A stretch of 64,000 nucleotides of DNA from Escherichia coli (GTDB lineage Bacteria > Pseudomonadota > Gammaproteobacteria > Enterobacterales > Enterobacteriaceae): NCBI RefSeq assembly GCF_041248615.1, contig NZ_CP158426.1. One strand, 5' to 3'. How positions within the stretch are numbered: the stretch's first letter is position 1; each line of letters starts with the position of its first letter. Of the stretch, positions 43,001-52,000 are shown in pieces. The position numbers are program-made.

Positions 43001-46000
43001 TCACGTTATCGCCATTATGCCGCCTTTGAGCGGGCAACCTTCGAACAGGGCAAGCCGACACAGCTGCTGATGCTGACAGATAAGCAAATCGCCGATTTCC
43101 AGAAACATTATCAGACTGAAGCGGAGCGTTTTCATATTCTACCACCGGGGATTTATCCTGATCGTAAATATAGCCAGCAGCCAGCCAATAGCCGTGAAAT
43201 CTTCCGTAAGAAGAATGGAATAACCGAACAACAATATTTATTGTTGCAGGTTGGTTCAGACTTCACGCGTAAAGGTGTCGATCGTTCCATTGAAGCACTT
43301 GCTTCGTTACCGGATTCGCTGCGCCACAACACATTGCTATATGTTGTTGGGCAGGATAAACCGCGAAAATTTGAGGCGCTGGCAGAAAAACGCGGCGTGC
43401 GCAGTAATGTTCACTTCTTCTCGGGGCGCAACGATGTCTCGGAATTAATGGCGGCGGCGGATTTATTACTGCATCCTGCCTACCAGGAAGCCGCGGGAAT
43501 TGTACTGCTGGAAGCGATAACTGCAGGATTACCGGTACTAACAACAGCCGTTTGTGGCTATGCGCATTATATTGTCGACGCCAATTGCGGCGAGGCTATT
43601 GCTGAGCCATTCCGCCAGGAAACATTGAATGAGATTTTACGCAAAGCGTTAACGCAATCTTCATTGCGCCAGGCCTGGGCGGAAAATGCGCGACATTATG
43701 CTGATACACAAGATTTATACAGTCTGCCAGAGAAAGCGGCGGACATCATAACGGGTGGTCTGGATGGTTGAACTTAAAGAGCCGTTTGCCACGTTATGGC
43801 GCGGTAAAGATCCTTTTGAGGAAGTTAAAACCTTGCAGGGTGAGGTATTTCGTGAACTGGAAACTCGCCGCACTCTGCGCTTTGAAATGGCGGGCAAAAG
43901 CTATTTTCTCAAATGGCATCGCGGCACGACCCTGAAAGAGATAATCAAAAATTTACTCTCATTGCGGATGCCAGTATTAGGCGCAGACCGCGAATGGAAT
44001 GCGATTCATCGACTGCGGGATGTCGGCGTTGATACTATGTATGGGGTGGCATTCGGCGAAAAAGGCATTAATCCGCTCACCAGAACCTCGTTTATTATAA
44101 CCGAAGATCTGACACCAACCATCAGTCTGGAAGATTACTGTGCTGACTGGGCGACTAACCCACCAGATGTTCGCGTAAAGCGTATGCTTATTAAGCGTGT
44201 CGCGACGATGGTGCGCGATATGCATGCTGCGGGCATTAACCACCGCGACTGTTATATCTGTCATTTCCTGCTACACTTGCCTTTTTCCGGTAAGGAAGAG
44301 GAGTTAAAAATTTCGGTAATTGACCTGCACCGGGCGCAGCTTCGCACGCGCGTTCCACGTCGTTGGCGCGATAAAGATCTTATTGGGCTTTATTTTTCTT
44401 CGATGAATATCGGCCTGACTCAGCGGGATATCTGGCGGTTTATGAAAGTGTATTTTGCCGCCCCGCTTAAAGACATTCTCAAGCAGGAACAAGGACTGCT
44501 GTCGCAAGCAGAAGAAAAAGCCACAAAAATCAGGGAAAGAACGATTCGAAAATCGTTGTAATTTCCGGAGATAAATATGAGTGCCCACTATTTTAATCCA
44601 CAAGAGATGATCAATAAGACAATCATCTTCGATGAAAGGCCAGCGGCGTCAGTGGCATCATCATTCCATGTTGCTTATGGCATTGATAAAAACTTTCTTT
44701 TTGGTTGTGGTGTTTCAATCACGTCAGTTTTGTTACATAACAGCGACGTGAGTTTTGTTTTCCACGTTTTTATTGATGATATCCCTGAAGCCGATATCCA
44801 GCGTTTAGCCCAATTGGCGAAAAGCTATCGTACCTGTATCCAGATCCATCTAGTAAATTGTGAACGGCTTAAGGCATTACCGACGACCAAAAATTGGTCT
44901 ATTGCCATGTATTTCCGTTTTGTAATTGCAGATTACTTTATTGATCAACAAGATAAGATCCTTTACCTGGATGCTGATATCGCCTGTCAGGGAAACTTAA
45001 AGCCGCTGATAACAATGGATCTTGCCAATAACGTTGCTGCTGTTGTTACTGAACGCGATGCTAACTGGTGGTCGTTACGGGGTCAAAGTCTGCAGTGTAA
45101 TGAACTTGAAAAGGGTTACTTTAATTCAGGTGTCCTGTTAATTAATACACTAGCGTGGGCGCAGGAGTCCGTTTCTGCTAAAGCGATGTCGATGCTTGCT
45201 GATAAAGCCATCGTTTCCCGTTTAACCTATATGGATCAAGATATCCTTAATCTTATCCTGTTAGGGAAAGTTAAATTCATTGATGCTAAATACAATACGC
45301 AATTTAGTTTAAATTATGAATTAAAAAAATCATTTGTTTGTCCAATTAATGATGAAACCGTATTAATTCATTATGTCGGCCCGACAAAACCCTGGCATTA
45401 CTGGGCCGGTTATCCAAGTGCGCAACCTTTTATCAAAGCCAAAGAAGCATCGCCCTGGAAAAATGAACCGTTAATGCGGCCAGTTAACTCAAACTATGCT
45501 CGTTATTGCGCTAAGCATAATTTTAAACAAAATAAACCAATTAACGGGATAATGAATTATATTTATTATTTTTATTTAAAGATAATAAAATGAAATTGAG
45601 AAAAGTTAAATGAATGAATTTATAAAAGAACGGTTTTCGTATTTAGCCGATAATAAAAAAGAAAACGCCCCAGAGCTAAATGTTTCCTACGGTATCGATA
45701 AGAATTTTTTGTATGGTGCTGGCGTTTCAATTTCTTCCGTTTTGATTAATAATTCAGATATTAATTTTGTCTTTCATGTTTTCACTGATTATGTGGATGA
45801 TGATTATTTAAAGTCATTTAATGAAACAGCAAAACAATTTAATACCTCAATTATTGTATATTTAATTGACCCCAAATACTTTGCTGATCTGCCGACGTCA
45901 CAGTTTTGGTCGTACGCGACATACTTCAGGGTATTGTCTTTTGAATATCTGAGTGAAAGTATTTCCACACTGCTGTATCTGGATGCCGATGTTGTTTGTA

Positions 46001-49000: not shown

Positions 49001-52000
49001 TTTAGACGAAATAATATTACATCCTATTTTAAATGAGTTTAATAGTCATCTTGAAAGTGAAAGGCTATTAACATCGGAAAAAAAACAACCTAGAACAAGG
49101 CTTCAGAAAAGAATGAAGTTTATACGCTCCTGGATAAAGGTGGCTTTTTTTTCTCTTTTGAAATGAGATTGTTAATTTCAATTTGTTGTGAGATATTAAC
49201 GTGGAAGTAAAAATTGAGCAATTTCGAAATAATAGCTGTAATTTTATTTTTTTATTGTATTTAATCGGTTTGTTGTTTGTGCCAATTGATCTTAATATCA
49301 CCACTAAAATAATTAATGCGACAGGTGCATTTTCTCTTTTCTTATTAATTGTAAATAAAAAGCACAATTATAATAAAAATGTCATTATATTAATTCTTGG
49401 TTTACTTCTTTTGGGTGCAATGAACCTTATATGGTATGAATTTTATAAAACAGAAGATGTAGTATATAGAAATGCTTATCGAGGCTACCTTGAGTCTGGA
49501 AAACTATTAGTATTTAGCTCGTTGACATTTTTATTACTAAGTAAAAATAAATTCAGGCAAAATGAAAAACTACATTTTATTTCAGCTATCTTAGTTCAAA
49601 TAATCATGCTATGTAGAGCATATTATCAAGGGATATATTTGCATGCAGACCGCATTCCCCTCTCCGCCATGAATGGGAATATTGGTCAGATGGGGGCAGC
49701 GACTATTGCGGCTTATGTGATTACATTTACAACTTTATATTCTTCAATTGTATTCATAAAAATGAAATCGAAATATAAATGGTTTCTATTTTATGCTAAC
49801 TTTGCTTTAAGCTTTGCAGCAGTAATGATGACAGGAACGCGTGCGGCAATTTTCACATTCCCACTTATGATTATGGTCATATTATTTCTTCAGCATCGTG
49901 ATCAAAAAGTGTTTTTATTTAAAGGATTGAGTGGTGTTTTTATATTGCTACTTGCTTGTGGTTTGATATTTAATAAGGAAATTGATAGGCGAATTAATTC
50001 ATTAAAAGCTGATGTTATTTCATATGCTACAAAAAATAACAGTCAATCCTCGGTCGGAGCACGTTTTGCAATGGTTAATGCAGGAATTAAAGGAAGTCCT
50101 GATGGTTTTAATTGGCAATCTCTTGAGCAGCGTGCTGAAAAGATAAAAGCATTAAGTGCAGAAAATAATATTTATAGTGGAGCTTTATTATTCCTTGATG
50201 TACATATGCATAACGAAATTGTGGAATCTCTTTCCACGAAAGGAAAAATTGGTCTTCTTGTTCTTATTATGTTCTATGTTGCAATGATCTATTACTGTAT
50301 ACGAGAGAAAAAATATATACTCTTGGTTTTCCCTGCTTCTATTATGTTATTTGGCATTAGTGATGTCATTACACATGCTAAACCAATACCGGCATCGTGG
50401 ATTGTGTGCCTCTTCCTGTCTATATCGTTTTTGAGTAAAAATGAACCACAATAATAAAAGCGTTGACTAAGTAAGTGGGTATAATGCCCACTTACTATTT
50501 ATTAAATTAATGTGATTTTTTTATAAACAGCCGCTGCTTCTAAATTATTTAAATTCATTAGCGGAGCCCTACAAACCACCTGATTCTTCCCATATCCGCC
50601 AATTAATCCCGGATCGGTTGGTCCATAAACCGTGATATTCGGTCTATCCAGTGCCGCCGTTAAATGGCTTAACCCCGTATCCACCGACACTACAAATTTA
50701 GCCCCGGCCAGTACGCGGGCAACGCCTTCCAGACTCATCTTCGGCAATACTTCAACATAAGCAAATCCTTCCGCCAGTCGTTTCGCCCGTTCTTCCTCAT
50801 GCGGCGCGCCCCACGGAAGTTTAATCCGTATTCCTGAATCAGCCAGTAAACCAATCAATTCTCGCCAGTGTTCTTCCGGCCAGTGTTTATCATCACGGGT
50901 CGTCGCATGAAGAAATACGGCATATTCGCCAGCATCTGTAGGCAGGTTCGTCAGGAAATGTTGTGCGATAGCATAATCACCTTGGGTTTGCGGTTTGCTA
51001 TAGCCCAAACTTTTGGCAAACAGTTCGCGGGTGCGTTCTACGGCGTGCTGCTGTTTTGCAATATGATGCTTACGATTGTAAAACAGGCTGGCTAACGGTT
51101 CTCGAACGGTTTGCCAGTCCATGCCATGCTTTACGCCATGCGCCAGACGCGTCACCAGCGCCGCGCTTTTTACCAGCCCCTGAGCGTCGATAACTGCGTC
51201 ATAGTTCTCTGCTTGTAGCGCTTCACGAAACGCTTTGCGTTCAGCTTTTATGGGGGCCGAGAACCAGGCTTTACGCCAGCGACGTATTGCCACAGGAATA
51301 ACTCGCTCAACGGCGGCGTGCCAGGAAGGAATCTGTGCGAACCCTTCTTCCACCACCCAGTCAAACTTAATCCCTGGGATTGCCTGCTGGGCATCAGTGA
51401 GTGCGGGCAGCGTATGGAGAACATCGCCCATCGACGATGTTTTAACGATCAAAACCCGCATCCGTCAGGCTTCCTCTTGTAACAATAGCGCGTTGAGTTC
51501 TTCCAGTACGCGCTGGGGAGTAATGTCGATCAAGCTCTGGTGATAACCCTCCGCAGCGTCACCTTTACGCACTTTGTGATAGCCGGTAATCAGGCGGATC
51601 ACGCGTGCTTTATGGGATAGCGGCGGTGTGAAGTCCGGGCTACTCGGACCATACAAGGCAACCAGCGGACGATTGAGCGCCGCCGCAACGTGCATCAGTC
51701 CAGAATCGTTAGTGACAATGGCTTTACAGGCTGCAATCAGGATAACCGCTTGATCAAGCTGTGTTTCCCCTGCCAGGTTCCGGCACCATGCCTGCTGCTC
51801 GGTATTTAAAGCGGCAAGAATCTCATTGCCCGCTTCATGATCTTTCGCCGAGCCAAACAGAACCACCTGATAACCTTCATCAATCAGCTGCTTTGCCAGC
51901 TCCGCATAGTGGTAGTGTGGCCAGCGTTTTGCCGGACCAAACTCCGCACCCGGGCAAAAGCCAATCATCGGACGTTCTGATGAAAGCGAAAATTGATTAC

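What the first reader, a model, noticed from the sequence alone, without database searches (positions are those of the whole stretch)
44577..50454. waa outer-core region is R1/R4-type rather than K-12 type; the GT25 gene favours R4-like
After waaQGP the order is GT8, GT8, waaY, GT8, GT25, waaL, with waaL on the same strand as the waaQ operon. K-12 has waaS-waaB-waaO-waaJ-waaY-waaZ-waaU and waaL in the other operon. The 257-aa GT25 (LgtB/Lic2A-like) protein suggests a WaaX-type beta-glycosyltransferase (R4) rather than WaaV (R1), but I cannot distinguish them without alignment. Core type affects phage receptor specificity and is relevant to phage-related islands in the same strain.
Basis: partly seen in the sequence, partly recalled or inferred. 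Interest (0 to 1): 0.3.

Follow-up and report, generated by a model that had tools for sequence, protein, structure and literature searches.

The report
Ordinary E. coli R4-type LPS core locus
This stretch is the well-known "R4" version of the Escherichia coli gene cluster that builds the outer core sugars of lipopolysaccharide; it is intact, found in about one in eight sequenced E. coli, and is not new.

Summary
The window is E. coli chromosome, essentially strain NRZ14408. After waaQ-waaG-waaP come GT8 (WaaO), GT8 (WaaT), WaaY kinase, GT8 (WaaW), a 257-aa GT25 protein and a 417-aa WaaL ligase, all on the + strand, convergent with waaC-waaF-rfaD. The 257-aa protein is residue-for-residue the UniRef entry Q9ZIS2 "Beta-1,4-galactosyltransferase". 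Published core-typing primers give only the R4 product, at exactly the published 380 bp; the R1, R2, R3 and K-12 primers find nothing. The locus is 99.7% identical to a genome published as R4 (CP007392). Against an R1 locus (E. coli C), WaaQ to WaaY are 98.6-99.2% identical. Homology then breaks at about 48264-48290 (in the waaW 3' end) and resumes at 50562 (in the waaC 3' end). This leaves a roughly 2.3-kb, 30.5% GC cassette in which the GT2 WaaV of R1 is replaced by the unrelated GT25 WaaX and WaaL is only 35% identical. K-12, R2 and R3 counterparts are 38-55% identical and have no GT25. 690 of 5,426 complete E. coli genomes carry the same cassette. This is already known and of low interest.

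The parts
41504..41542 (+). JUMPstart element with the ops sequence GGCGGTAG (41531-41538) in the waaQ leader. It is the RfaH-dependent antitermination signal for the long waaQ operon.
   Evidence: Rfam RF01707, 55.2 bits against a gathering score of 35, E=1.5e-10; ops match.
41592..42650 (+). waaQ (rfaQ), heptosyltransferase III, GT9
   Evidence: Pfam GT9; NCBIfam RfaQ equivalog at 710 bits; 98.6% identical to R1 and 98.9% to R3 WaaQ, 72.7% to K-12.
42647..43771 (+). waaG, GT4 glucosyltransferase I (adds GlcI)
   Evidence: Pfam Glycos_transf_1; 99.2% identical to R1 WaaG.
43764..44561 (+). waaP, core heptose(I) kinase. The RefSeq start is 43764; the longest ORF starts at a GTG at 43755.
   Evidence: Pfam Kdo/WaaP; NCBIfam RfaP equivalog; annotation.
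44577..45593 (+). waaO, GT8, alpha-1,3-glucosyltransferase (adds GlcII)
   Evidence: Pfam GT8+GT8C; 98.8% identical to R1 WaaO; UniRef name of the exact sequence is 'UDP-glucose:(Glucosyl) LPS alpha1,3-glucosyltransferase WaaO'.
45610..46605 (+). waaT, GT8, alpha-1,2-galactosyltransferase (adds GalI)
   Evidence: Pfam GT8; 99.1% identical to R1 WaaT; UniRef name WaaT.
46615..47307 (+). waaY, core heptose(II) kinase
   Evidence: Pfam WaaY E=3.7e-129; NCBIfam RfaY equivalog; 98.7% identical to R1 WaaY.
47333..48361 (+). waaW, GT8, alpha-1,2-galactosyltransferase (adds GalII). The last 32 codons belong to the R4-specific segment.
   Evidence: Pfam GT8. The exact sequence equals UniRef Q9ZIS1. Against R1 WaaW, 307/310 residues are identical, then 11/32 in the tail. 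Typing primer R1R4-R lies at 48202-48221.
48264..50561 (.). R4-specific cassette of about 2.3 kb and 30.5% GC. It holds the waaW 3' end, waaX, waaL, the intergenic hairpin and the waaC 3' end. The left edge is gradual: the alignment diverges from 48264, and BLAST extends homology to 48290.
   Evidence: BLASTN against the R1 locus aligns 41000-48290 at 98.5% and 50562-52000 at 98.0%, with nothing between. Alignments of both edges. GC values.
48393..49166 (+). waaX, 257-aa GT25 beta-1,4-galactosyltransferase, the R4-defining gene
   Evidence: Pfam GT25 E=1.9e-51. Exact match to UniRef Q9ZIS2 'Beta-1,4-galactosyltransferase'. R4-F primer at 48563-48581. No similarity to R1 WaaV and no homologue in the K-12, R2 or R3 loci. 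Solved GT25 structures 8xc8/8xlz match at E about 2e-13.
49201..50454 (+). waaL, O-antigen ligase (lipid A-core:surface polymer ligase), allele linked to waaX
   Evidence: Pfam Wzy_C at 31.5 bits (cutoff 31.7). 35% identical to R1 WaaL, E=5e-76; 31% to K-12 WaaL; no BLASTP hit to R2 or R3 WaaL. PDB 7tpg WaaL matches at E=5.7e-8. R214 and H337-N338 are invariant across five core-type WaaL proteins.
50470..50496 (.). 12-bp-stem hairpin between the convergent waaL and waaC; probable bidirectional terminator
   Evidence: Terminator-like scan. This is a consensus match only.
50502..51461 (-). waaC (rfaC), heptosyltransferase I. Its last ~20 codons fall in the type-specific segment.
   Evidence: NCBIfam RfaC equivalog at 629 bits. 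Against R1 WaaC, 296/299 residues are identical, then 8/24 in the tail.

Best explanation
This is the standard R4-type waa (rfa) locus of Escherichia coli. It is an RfaH-dependent operon, waaQ-G-P-O-T-Y-W-X-L, that builds and decorates the LPS core and then ligates O antigen to it. Inferred pathway, from the R1/R4 literature: WaaG adds GlcI to HepII. WaaO adds GlcII (alpha-1,3). WaaT adds GalI (alpha-1,2). WaaW adds GalII (alpha-1,2). WaaX, the GT25 enzyme, adds a beta-linked galactose side branch to GlcII, where R1 strains use the GT2 enzyme WaaV to add beta-glucose. WaaP and WaaY phosphorylate HepI and HepII, and WaaQ adds HepIII. The cognate WaaL then transfers Und-PP-linked O antigen (or ECA) to the completed core in the periplasm, presumably onto the beta-Gal branch. 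R4 differs from R1 only by a ~2.3-kb low-GC cassette (waaW tail, waaX, waaL, waaC tail). Shown here: gene content, order and strand, family assignments, intactness, sequence identity to the database protein named beta-1,4-galactosyltransferase, the R4 typing result, and the cassette boundaries. Inferred: the sugar linkages and the ligation site.
For: Gene order and families. WaaX is an exact match to UniRef Q9ZIS2 'Beta-1,4-galactosyltransferase', and WaaW to Q9ZIS1. R4-only in silico PCR gives 48202-48581 = 380 bp, the published size; the R1, R2, R3 and K-12 primers are absent at up to 3 mismatches. The locus is 99.7% identical over 100% of 5,878 bp to CP007392 (H7), which is listed as R4 in the PMC13293308 supplement. 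The comparison with R1 shows 98.6-99.2% identity up to WaaY, then a replaced segment with GT2 WaaV against GT25 WaaX and 35% WaaL identity. K-12, R2 and R3 counterparts are 38-55% identical and none has a GT25. JUMPstart/ops lies upstream of waaQ. 690 of 5,426 genomes (12.7%) carry the full cassette, in line with the published R4 prevalence of 13.0% (PMC8715443). For pathway order and WaaV/WaaX roles, see PMC3526765, bioRxiv 10.1101/2022.09.06.506728 and PMC7504096.
Against: No result argues against it, but some gaps remain. The prototype R4 sequence (strain F2513) was not available for a direct alignment; attributing Q9ZIS2 to that strain rests on my memory. The WaaL Pfam score (31.5) is 0.2 bits under the gathering cutoff. 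The linkage made by WaaX is given as beta-1,4 in PMC13293308 and UniRef but as beta-1,3 in PMC3526765. The O-antigen attachment site in R4 is described as assumed rather than demonstrated (PMC7504096). Expression and the actual LPS chemotype cannot be read from sequence.
Confidence: 0.97

Rival explanations
1. The locus is R1-type. The GT after waaW would be a WaaV-like beta-glucosyltransferase and the ligase the R1 WaaL.
For: The first seven genes, waaQ to waaW, are 93-99% identical to the E. coli C R1 locus, with the same order and strand for all nine genes.
Against: R1 WaaV is a 327-aa GT2 protein with no similarity to the window's 257-aa GT25 protein (E=1.5). WaaL is only 35% identical. 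The R1-F primer is absent at up to 3 mismatches. About 1,836 genomes match only the first ~930-958 nt of waaW, so they form a separate class.
Confidence: 0.01
2. The strain is an R1/R4 hybrid like ECOR46, carrying a second waaV-waaL(R1) copy elsewhere in the genome, so the expressed core would be mixed.
For: Such a configuration is reported for ECOR46 (PMC13293308). Some genomes have up to 3 places matching the query.
Against: The window holds one waaL, no waaV and no IS element in the locus. NZ_LT599825.1 shows a single matching place for the 5.9-kb query (H1). The rest of that genome was not searched with an R1 waaV probe.
Confidence: 0.01
3. The locus is a new or hybrid core type, with an R4-like gene order but a functionally different GT25 or ligase.
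For: Hybrid K-12/R2 loci have been described (PMC13293308 abstract). NCBIfam has no specific model for the GT25 protein or the ligase.
Against: The GT25, WaaW, WaaT, WaaO and WaaL sequences are exact matches to proteins seen on hundreds to over a thousand contigs. The whole 5.9 kb is at least 99% identical in 676 records, including a genome published as R4.
Confidence: 0.01

Closest known systems
E. coli R4 core-type waa locus (prototype strain F2513; Heinrichs et al. 1998 J Biol Chem 273:29497, cited in PMC7504096 and PMC3526765)
   Same: Gene order waaQGPOTYWXL with waaL in the waaQ operon. The GT25 WaaX is identical to the database protein named beta-1,4-galactosyltransferase (Q9ZIS2). The R4-specific 380-bp amplicon is present. 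The locus is 99.7% identical to a genome typed R4 in the literature.
   Different: No difference was detected. The prototype strain's own sequence could not be aligned directly here.
E. coli R1 core-type waa locus (e.g. E. coli C, F470)
   Same: Same architecture and strand arrangement. WaaQ, G, P, O, T and Y are 98.6-99.2% identical. There is the same JUMPstart-led operon ending in waaL, convergent with waaC.
   Different: The ~2.3-kb segment 48264-50561 is replaced. R1 has the GT2 WaaV (327 aa, beta-glucosyltransferase) where R4 has the GT25 WaaX (257 aa). WaaL is 35% identical, and the C-terminal tails of WaaW and WaaC differ.
E. coli K-12, R2 and R3 core-type loci (MG1655, NCTC10973, O157 Sakai)
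   Same: They share the flanks (waaA, rfaD-waaF-waaC), waaQ-G-P, and GT8 and WaaY family members.
   Different: Their outer-core proteins are only 38-55% identical to the window's. They have extra genes (waaS, B, Z, U, K or D), no GT25, and waaL on the opposite strand behind waaC.
GT25 LOS/LPS beta-galactosyltransferases
   Same: WaaX matches Pfam GT25 over nearly the whole profile (3-195 of 199). It matches solved bacterial GT25 structures 8xc8/8xlz and the GT25 domain of human procollagen galactosyltransferase 1. An EDD motif at residues 90-92 aligns with EDD in 8xc8.
   Different: No direct comparison with Lic2A or LgtB sequences was made. Acceptor specificity (GlcII of the E. coli core) comes from the literature and was not tested here.

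Membership tests
E. coli R4 core-type waa locus | Gene order waaQ-G-P-O-T-Y-W-X-L, with waaL co-directional with waaQ | tested here: met
   ORF map, Pfam and RefSeq annotation.
E. coli R4 core-type waa locus | Presence of waaX (beta-1,4-galactosyltransferase) between waaW and waaL | tested here: met
   The 257-aa GT25 protein is an exact match to UniRef Q9ZIS2 'Beta-1,4-galactosyltransferase'.
E. coli R4 core-type waa locus | R4-specific typing amplicon (primers R4-F and R1R4-R, 380 bp) and absence of the other four type amplicons | tested here: met
   Perfect primer sites at 48202-48221 and 48563-48581 give a 380-bp product. The R1-F, R2, R3 and K-12 primers are absent at up to 3 mismatches (primers from PMC13293308).
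E. coli R4 core-type waa locus | R4 allele of waaL (waaL alleles are used as the typing marker in PMC8715443) | tested here: met
   It is not the R1, K-12, R2 or R3 allele: 35% and 31% identity, then no BLASTP hit for R2 and R3. The stretch including waaL is 99.7% identical to CP007392, which is published as R4. The F2513 reference allele itself was not available.
E. coli R4 core-type waa locus | R4 chemotype: Gal-alpha1,2-Gal-alpha1,2-Glc-alpha1,3-Glc backbone with a beta-Gal side branch | not testable with these tools
   Needs LPS chemistry or R4-specific antibody.
E. coli R1 core-type waa locus | waaV (GT2 beta-1,3-glucosyltransferase) and the R1 waaL allele | tested here: not met
   No similarity to WaaV, which is GT2. 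WaaL is 35% identical. The R1-F primer is absent.
E. coli K-12 / R2 / R3 core-type loci | Type-specific genes (waaU/waaS/waaB/waaZ; waaK; waaD), waaL behind waaC on the other strand, and type amplicons | tested here: not met
   Locus maps; best protein identities of 38-55%; primers absent.
Glycosyltransferase family 25 (Pfam PF01755) | Significant full-length match to the family profile | tested here: met
   175.2 bits against a cutoff of 24, E=1.9e-51, profile positions 3-195 of 199. PDB GT25 proteins match at E about 2e-13.
WaaL O-antigen ligase (Wzy_C, PF04932) | Profile match, homology to characterised WaaL proteins, and conserved Arg and His residues in the periplasmic loop | tested here: met
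   The Pfam score of 31.5 is 0.2 bits below the cutoff of 31.7. However, BLASTP gives E=5e-76 to R1 WaaL and E=1e-42 to K-12 WaaL, and PDB 7tpg matches at E=5.7e-8. R214 and H337-N338 are invariant in the five-type alignment. The catalytic role of these residues is from my memory of the K-12 WaaL literature.
RfaH-dependent (JUMPstart/ops) operon | JUMPstart RNA motif with an ops element in the operon leader | tested here: met
   RF01707 at 55.2 bits against a gathering score of 35, at 41504-41542, 50 nt upstream of waaQ; GGCGGTAG at 41531.

The most novel reading that the evidence does not exclude
The most novel reading not excluded is this. The type-specific C-terminal tails of WaaW (last 32 aa) and WaaC (last ~20 aa), which travel with the waaX-waaL cassette, might not be passive recombination scars. 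They could be co-adapted, for example if the WaaW tail interacts with WaaX in R4 and with WaaV in R1 and so enforces the known WaaW-before-WaaV order of assembly. A clean R1-to-R4 swap would then need the whole 2.3-kb unit and not only waaX and waaL.
Probability: 0.05. Interest if true: 0.2.

Novelty: already known. Interest (0 to 1): 0.05.

Why it matters
It matters only as routine strain annotation. Knowing that this strain (essentially E. coli NRZ14408) has an R4 outer core helps predict which core-binding phages, antibodies or lectins could recognise it when O antigen is absent or short. It also identifies which WaaL/acceptor pair ligates its O antigen. It adds nothing to what is known about LPS core genetics, since R4 was defined genetically in 1998 and occurs in about 13% of E. 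coli genomes.

Tried and rejected
R1 assignment was rejected: WaaV is GT2 and unrelated, the R1 primer is absent and WaaL is 35% identical.

K-12, R2 and R3 assignments were rejected by direct locus comparison with MG1655, NCTC10973 and Sakai.

I tried to read Amor et al. 2000 (PMC97256) for the original typing scheme; it is not held. A search for F2513, Q9ZIS2 or AF019745 found no paper tying the accession to the strain.

NCBIfam has no model for WaaX or this WaaL.

The promoter and terminator scans gave counts no higher than shuffled sequence. Only the hairpin between waaL and waaC is cited, as a plausible terminator and no more.

The first supplement look-up failed for lack of capacity and succeeded on retry. 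NRZ14408 itself is not in the part of the supplement that is held.

I did not run the large protein or metagenome searches, structure prediction or fold search, because the identity of the locus was already settled.
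Full report
**Provenance of the window.** The 5,878-bp region matches Escherichia coli chromosomes only. It is 100% identical to NZ_LT599825.1 (isolate NRZ14408) at 172577-178454. Window coordinates map one-to-one onto 128001-192000 of that record. There are two single-base differences in the first 42 kb and none across 38577-56454 or 50000-64000. The surrounding genes are the usual E. coli neighbourhood: mutM, coaD, waaA | waa operon | waaC, waaF, rfaD, kbl, tdh, waaH.

**Checking the observation.** Pfam gives the following assignments:
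- GT9 for waaQ, GT4 for waaG, and the Kdo/WaaP kinase family for waaP.
- GT8 plus the GT8 C-terminal domain for the 338-, 331- and 342-aa proteins.
- WaaY (E=3.7e-129) for the 230-aa protein.
- GT25 (E=1.9e-51, near full-length) for the 257-aa protein.
- Wzy_C (O-antigen ligase) for the 417-aa protein.

All nine genes are on the + strand and converge on waaC-waaF-rfaD.

**R4 or R1.** Four independent lines agree on R4.

1. An exact-sequence look-up shows the 257-aa protein is identical to UniRef Q9ZIS2_ECOLX, named "Beta-1,4-galactosyltransferase". The 342-aa protein is identical to Q9ZIS1_ECOLX. The other proteins carry the names WaaO, WaaT and "Lipid A-core:surface polymer ligase WaaL". The 2025 typing paper names waaX the beta-1,4-galactosyltransferase that is diagnostic for R4 (PMC13293308).

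2. I ran that paper's nine typing primers against the window. Only R1R4-R (48202-48221) and R4-F (48563-48581, minus strand) have sites, both perfect. They give a 380-bp product, exactly the published R4 size. R1-F and both primers of the R2, R3 and K-12 pairs have no site even with three mismatches.

3. CP007392 (strain ST2747) matches 100% of the query at 99.7% identity in one piece (H7). It is listed as R4, phylogroup D, in that paper's supplementary table.

4. I compared the locus directly with an R1 locus. I used E. coli C strain C122, whose pathway is described as running from WaaA to WaaV. WaaQ, G, P, O, T and Y are 98.6-99.2% identical and WaaW is 93% identical. The next R1 gene, however, encodes a 327-aa GT2 protein with no similarity to the GT25 protein (best E=1.5). 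The two 417-aa WaaL proteins are only 35% identical.

**K-12, R2 and R3.** I fetched MG1655 (K-12), O157:H7 Sakai (R3) and NCTC10973 (an R2-type locus with waaS-like, waaB, waaO, waaJ, waaY, waaZ and a frameshifted waaK). The window's GT8 and WaaY proteins are only 38-55% identical to their best counterparts there. The GT25 protein has no homologue in any of the three loci. WaaL is 31% identical to K-12 WaaL and gives no BLASTP hit to the R2 or R3 ligases. All three types place waaL on the opposite strand behind waaC. The refutation condition is not met.

**Anatomy of the R1/R4 difference.** BLASTN against the R1 locus aligns window 41000-48290 at 98.5% and 50562-52000 at 98.0%, with nothing in between. 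Base-level alignment shows identity ending at about 48263, with patchy residual similarity for some tens of bases, and resuming at about 50561.

The type-specific cassette is therefore about 2.3 kb (48264-50561). It contains:
- the last 32 codons of waaW (307/310 identical before the break, 11/32 after);
- waaX and waaL;
- a 12-bp-stem hairpin at 50470-50496, between the two convergent operons;
- the last ~20 codons of waaC (296/299 identical, then 8/24).

GC content falls stepwise: 47.6% in waaQGP, 37.1% in waaOTYW, 30.5% in the cassette, and back to 52.7% in waaC-waaF-rfaD. This is the usual signature of laterally exchanged LPS genes.

**How it most likely works.**

*Shown here:*
- A JUMPstart RNA motif with the ops element lies 50 nt upstream of waaQ (Rfam 55.2 bits against 35). 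The nine-gene operon, including the distal waaX and waaL, should therefore depend on RfaH antitermination.
- All ORFs are intact and full-length relative to their relatives.
- WaaL keeps R214 and H337-N338, which are invariant across the five core-type ligases. It also matches the solved WaaL structure 7tpg.
- WaaX matches solved bacterial GT25 structures, and its EDD motif at residues 90-92 aligns with theirs.

*Inferred from the literature:*
- WaaG, WaaO, WaaT and WaaW build GlcI, GlcII, GalI and GalII.
- WaaX adds the beta-Gal side branch, where R1's WaaV adds beta-Glc (PMC3526765; bioRxiv 10.1101/2022.09.06.506728).
- WaaL then ligates O antigen or ECA, with the beta-Gal branch as the assumed acceptor (PMC7504096).
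- The linkage is given as beta-1,4 by PMC13293308 and UniRef but as beta-1,3 by PMC3526765. I cannot resolve that discrepancy here.

**Frequency.** 690 of 5,426 complete E. coli genomes (12.7%) carry at least 80% of the waaW-waaX-waaL query. About 1,836 more match only the first ~930-958 nt of waaW, which is the R1 pattern. Published R4 prevalence is 13.0% in 269 genomes (PMC8715443). R4 is enriched in phylogroups D, F and G (PMC13293308).

**Verdict.** The locus is a textbook R4 core-type waa cluster. It is already known, common and intact, and has no unusual feature. The remaining caveats are small:
- the F2513 prototype sequence was not aligned directly;
- a second R1 cassette elsewhere in the genome, as in ECOR46, was not excluded;
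- the chemotype itself cannot be read from DNA.

Noticed in passing
window 13400-32050: A ~19-kb integrase-bearing phage-like island sits between dinD (11908-12732) and yicC (32179-33042); these two genes are adjacent in O157 Sakai. The annotation of the near-identical record lists a tyrosine integrase (30722-31990), a TOPRIM/DUF927 primase (22192-24948), an Ash-family protein, an AntA/AntB antirepressor, P22-like DNA ejection/injection proteins (16771-20297), an Abi family protein (14460-15437) and a PerC regulator (13443-13730). It lists no capsid or tail genes. This could be a satellite or a prophage remnant.
   Followed up: partly
window 48264-48361 and 50502-50561: The R1/R4 recombination boundaries lie inside genes. 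As a result, the last 32 aa of WaaW and the last ~20 aa of WaaC are type-specific and travel with the waaX-waaL cassette.
   Followed up: yes
window 49201-50454: The R4 WaaL scores 31.5 bits on Pfam Wzy_C, just under the 31.7 gathering cutoff, while R1 WaaL scores 67.9. Strict Pfam-based annotation could therefore miss this ligase.
   Followed up: yes
window 44577-45593: RefSeq/NCBIfam name WaaO 'lipopolysaccharide 3-alpha-galactosyltransferase' through model NF011718, whereas UniRef names the identical protein an alpha-1,3-glucosyltransferase. I believe the NCBIfam name follows the Salmonella RfaI activity, so it is probably a naming artefact.
   Followed up: partly
E. coli genome collection (hits to window 44577-50454): Three of the ~2,539 matching places are on records labelled as plasmids. 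I did not examine them; they could be mislabelled replicons or real mobilised waa segments.
   Followed up: no
window 12963 and 18787: These are the only two differences from NZ_LT599825.1 in the first 42 kb (A in the window, G in the RefSeq record). The window is therefore either another version of the NRZ14408 assembly or a near-clonal strain.
   Followed up: partly
literature: There is a discrepancy over the WaaX linkage. PMC3526765 describes a beta-1,3-linked Gal, while PMC13293308 and the UniRef name give beta-1,4.
   Followed up: no
L007 10133-11274 (NCTC10973, R2-type locus): The waaK (N-acetylglucosaminyltransferase) gene of this R2-type reference strain is annotated as frameshifted. 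That strain's core may therefore lack the terminal GlcNAc needed for O-antigen ligation.
   Followed up: no
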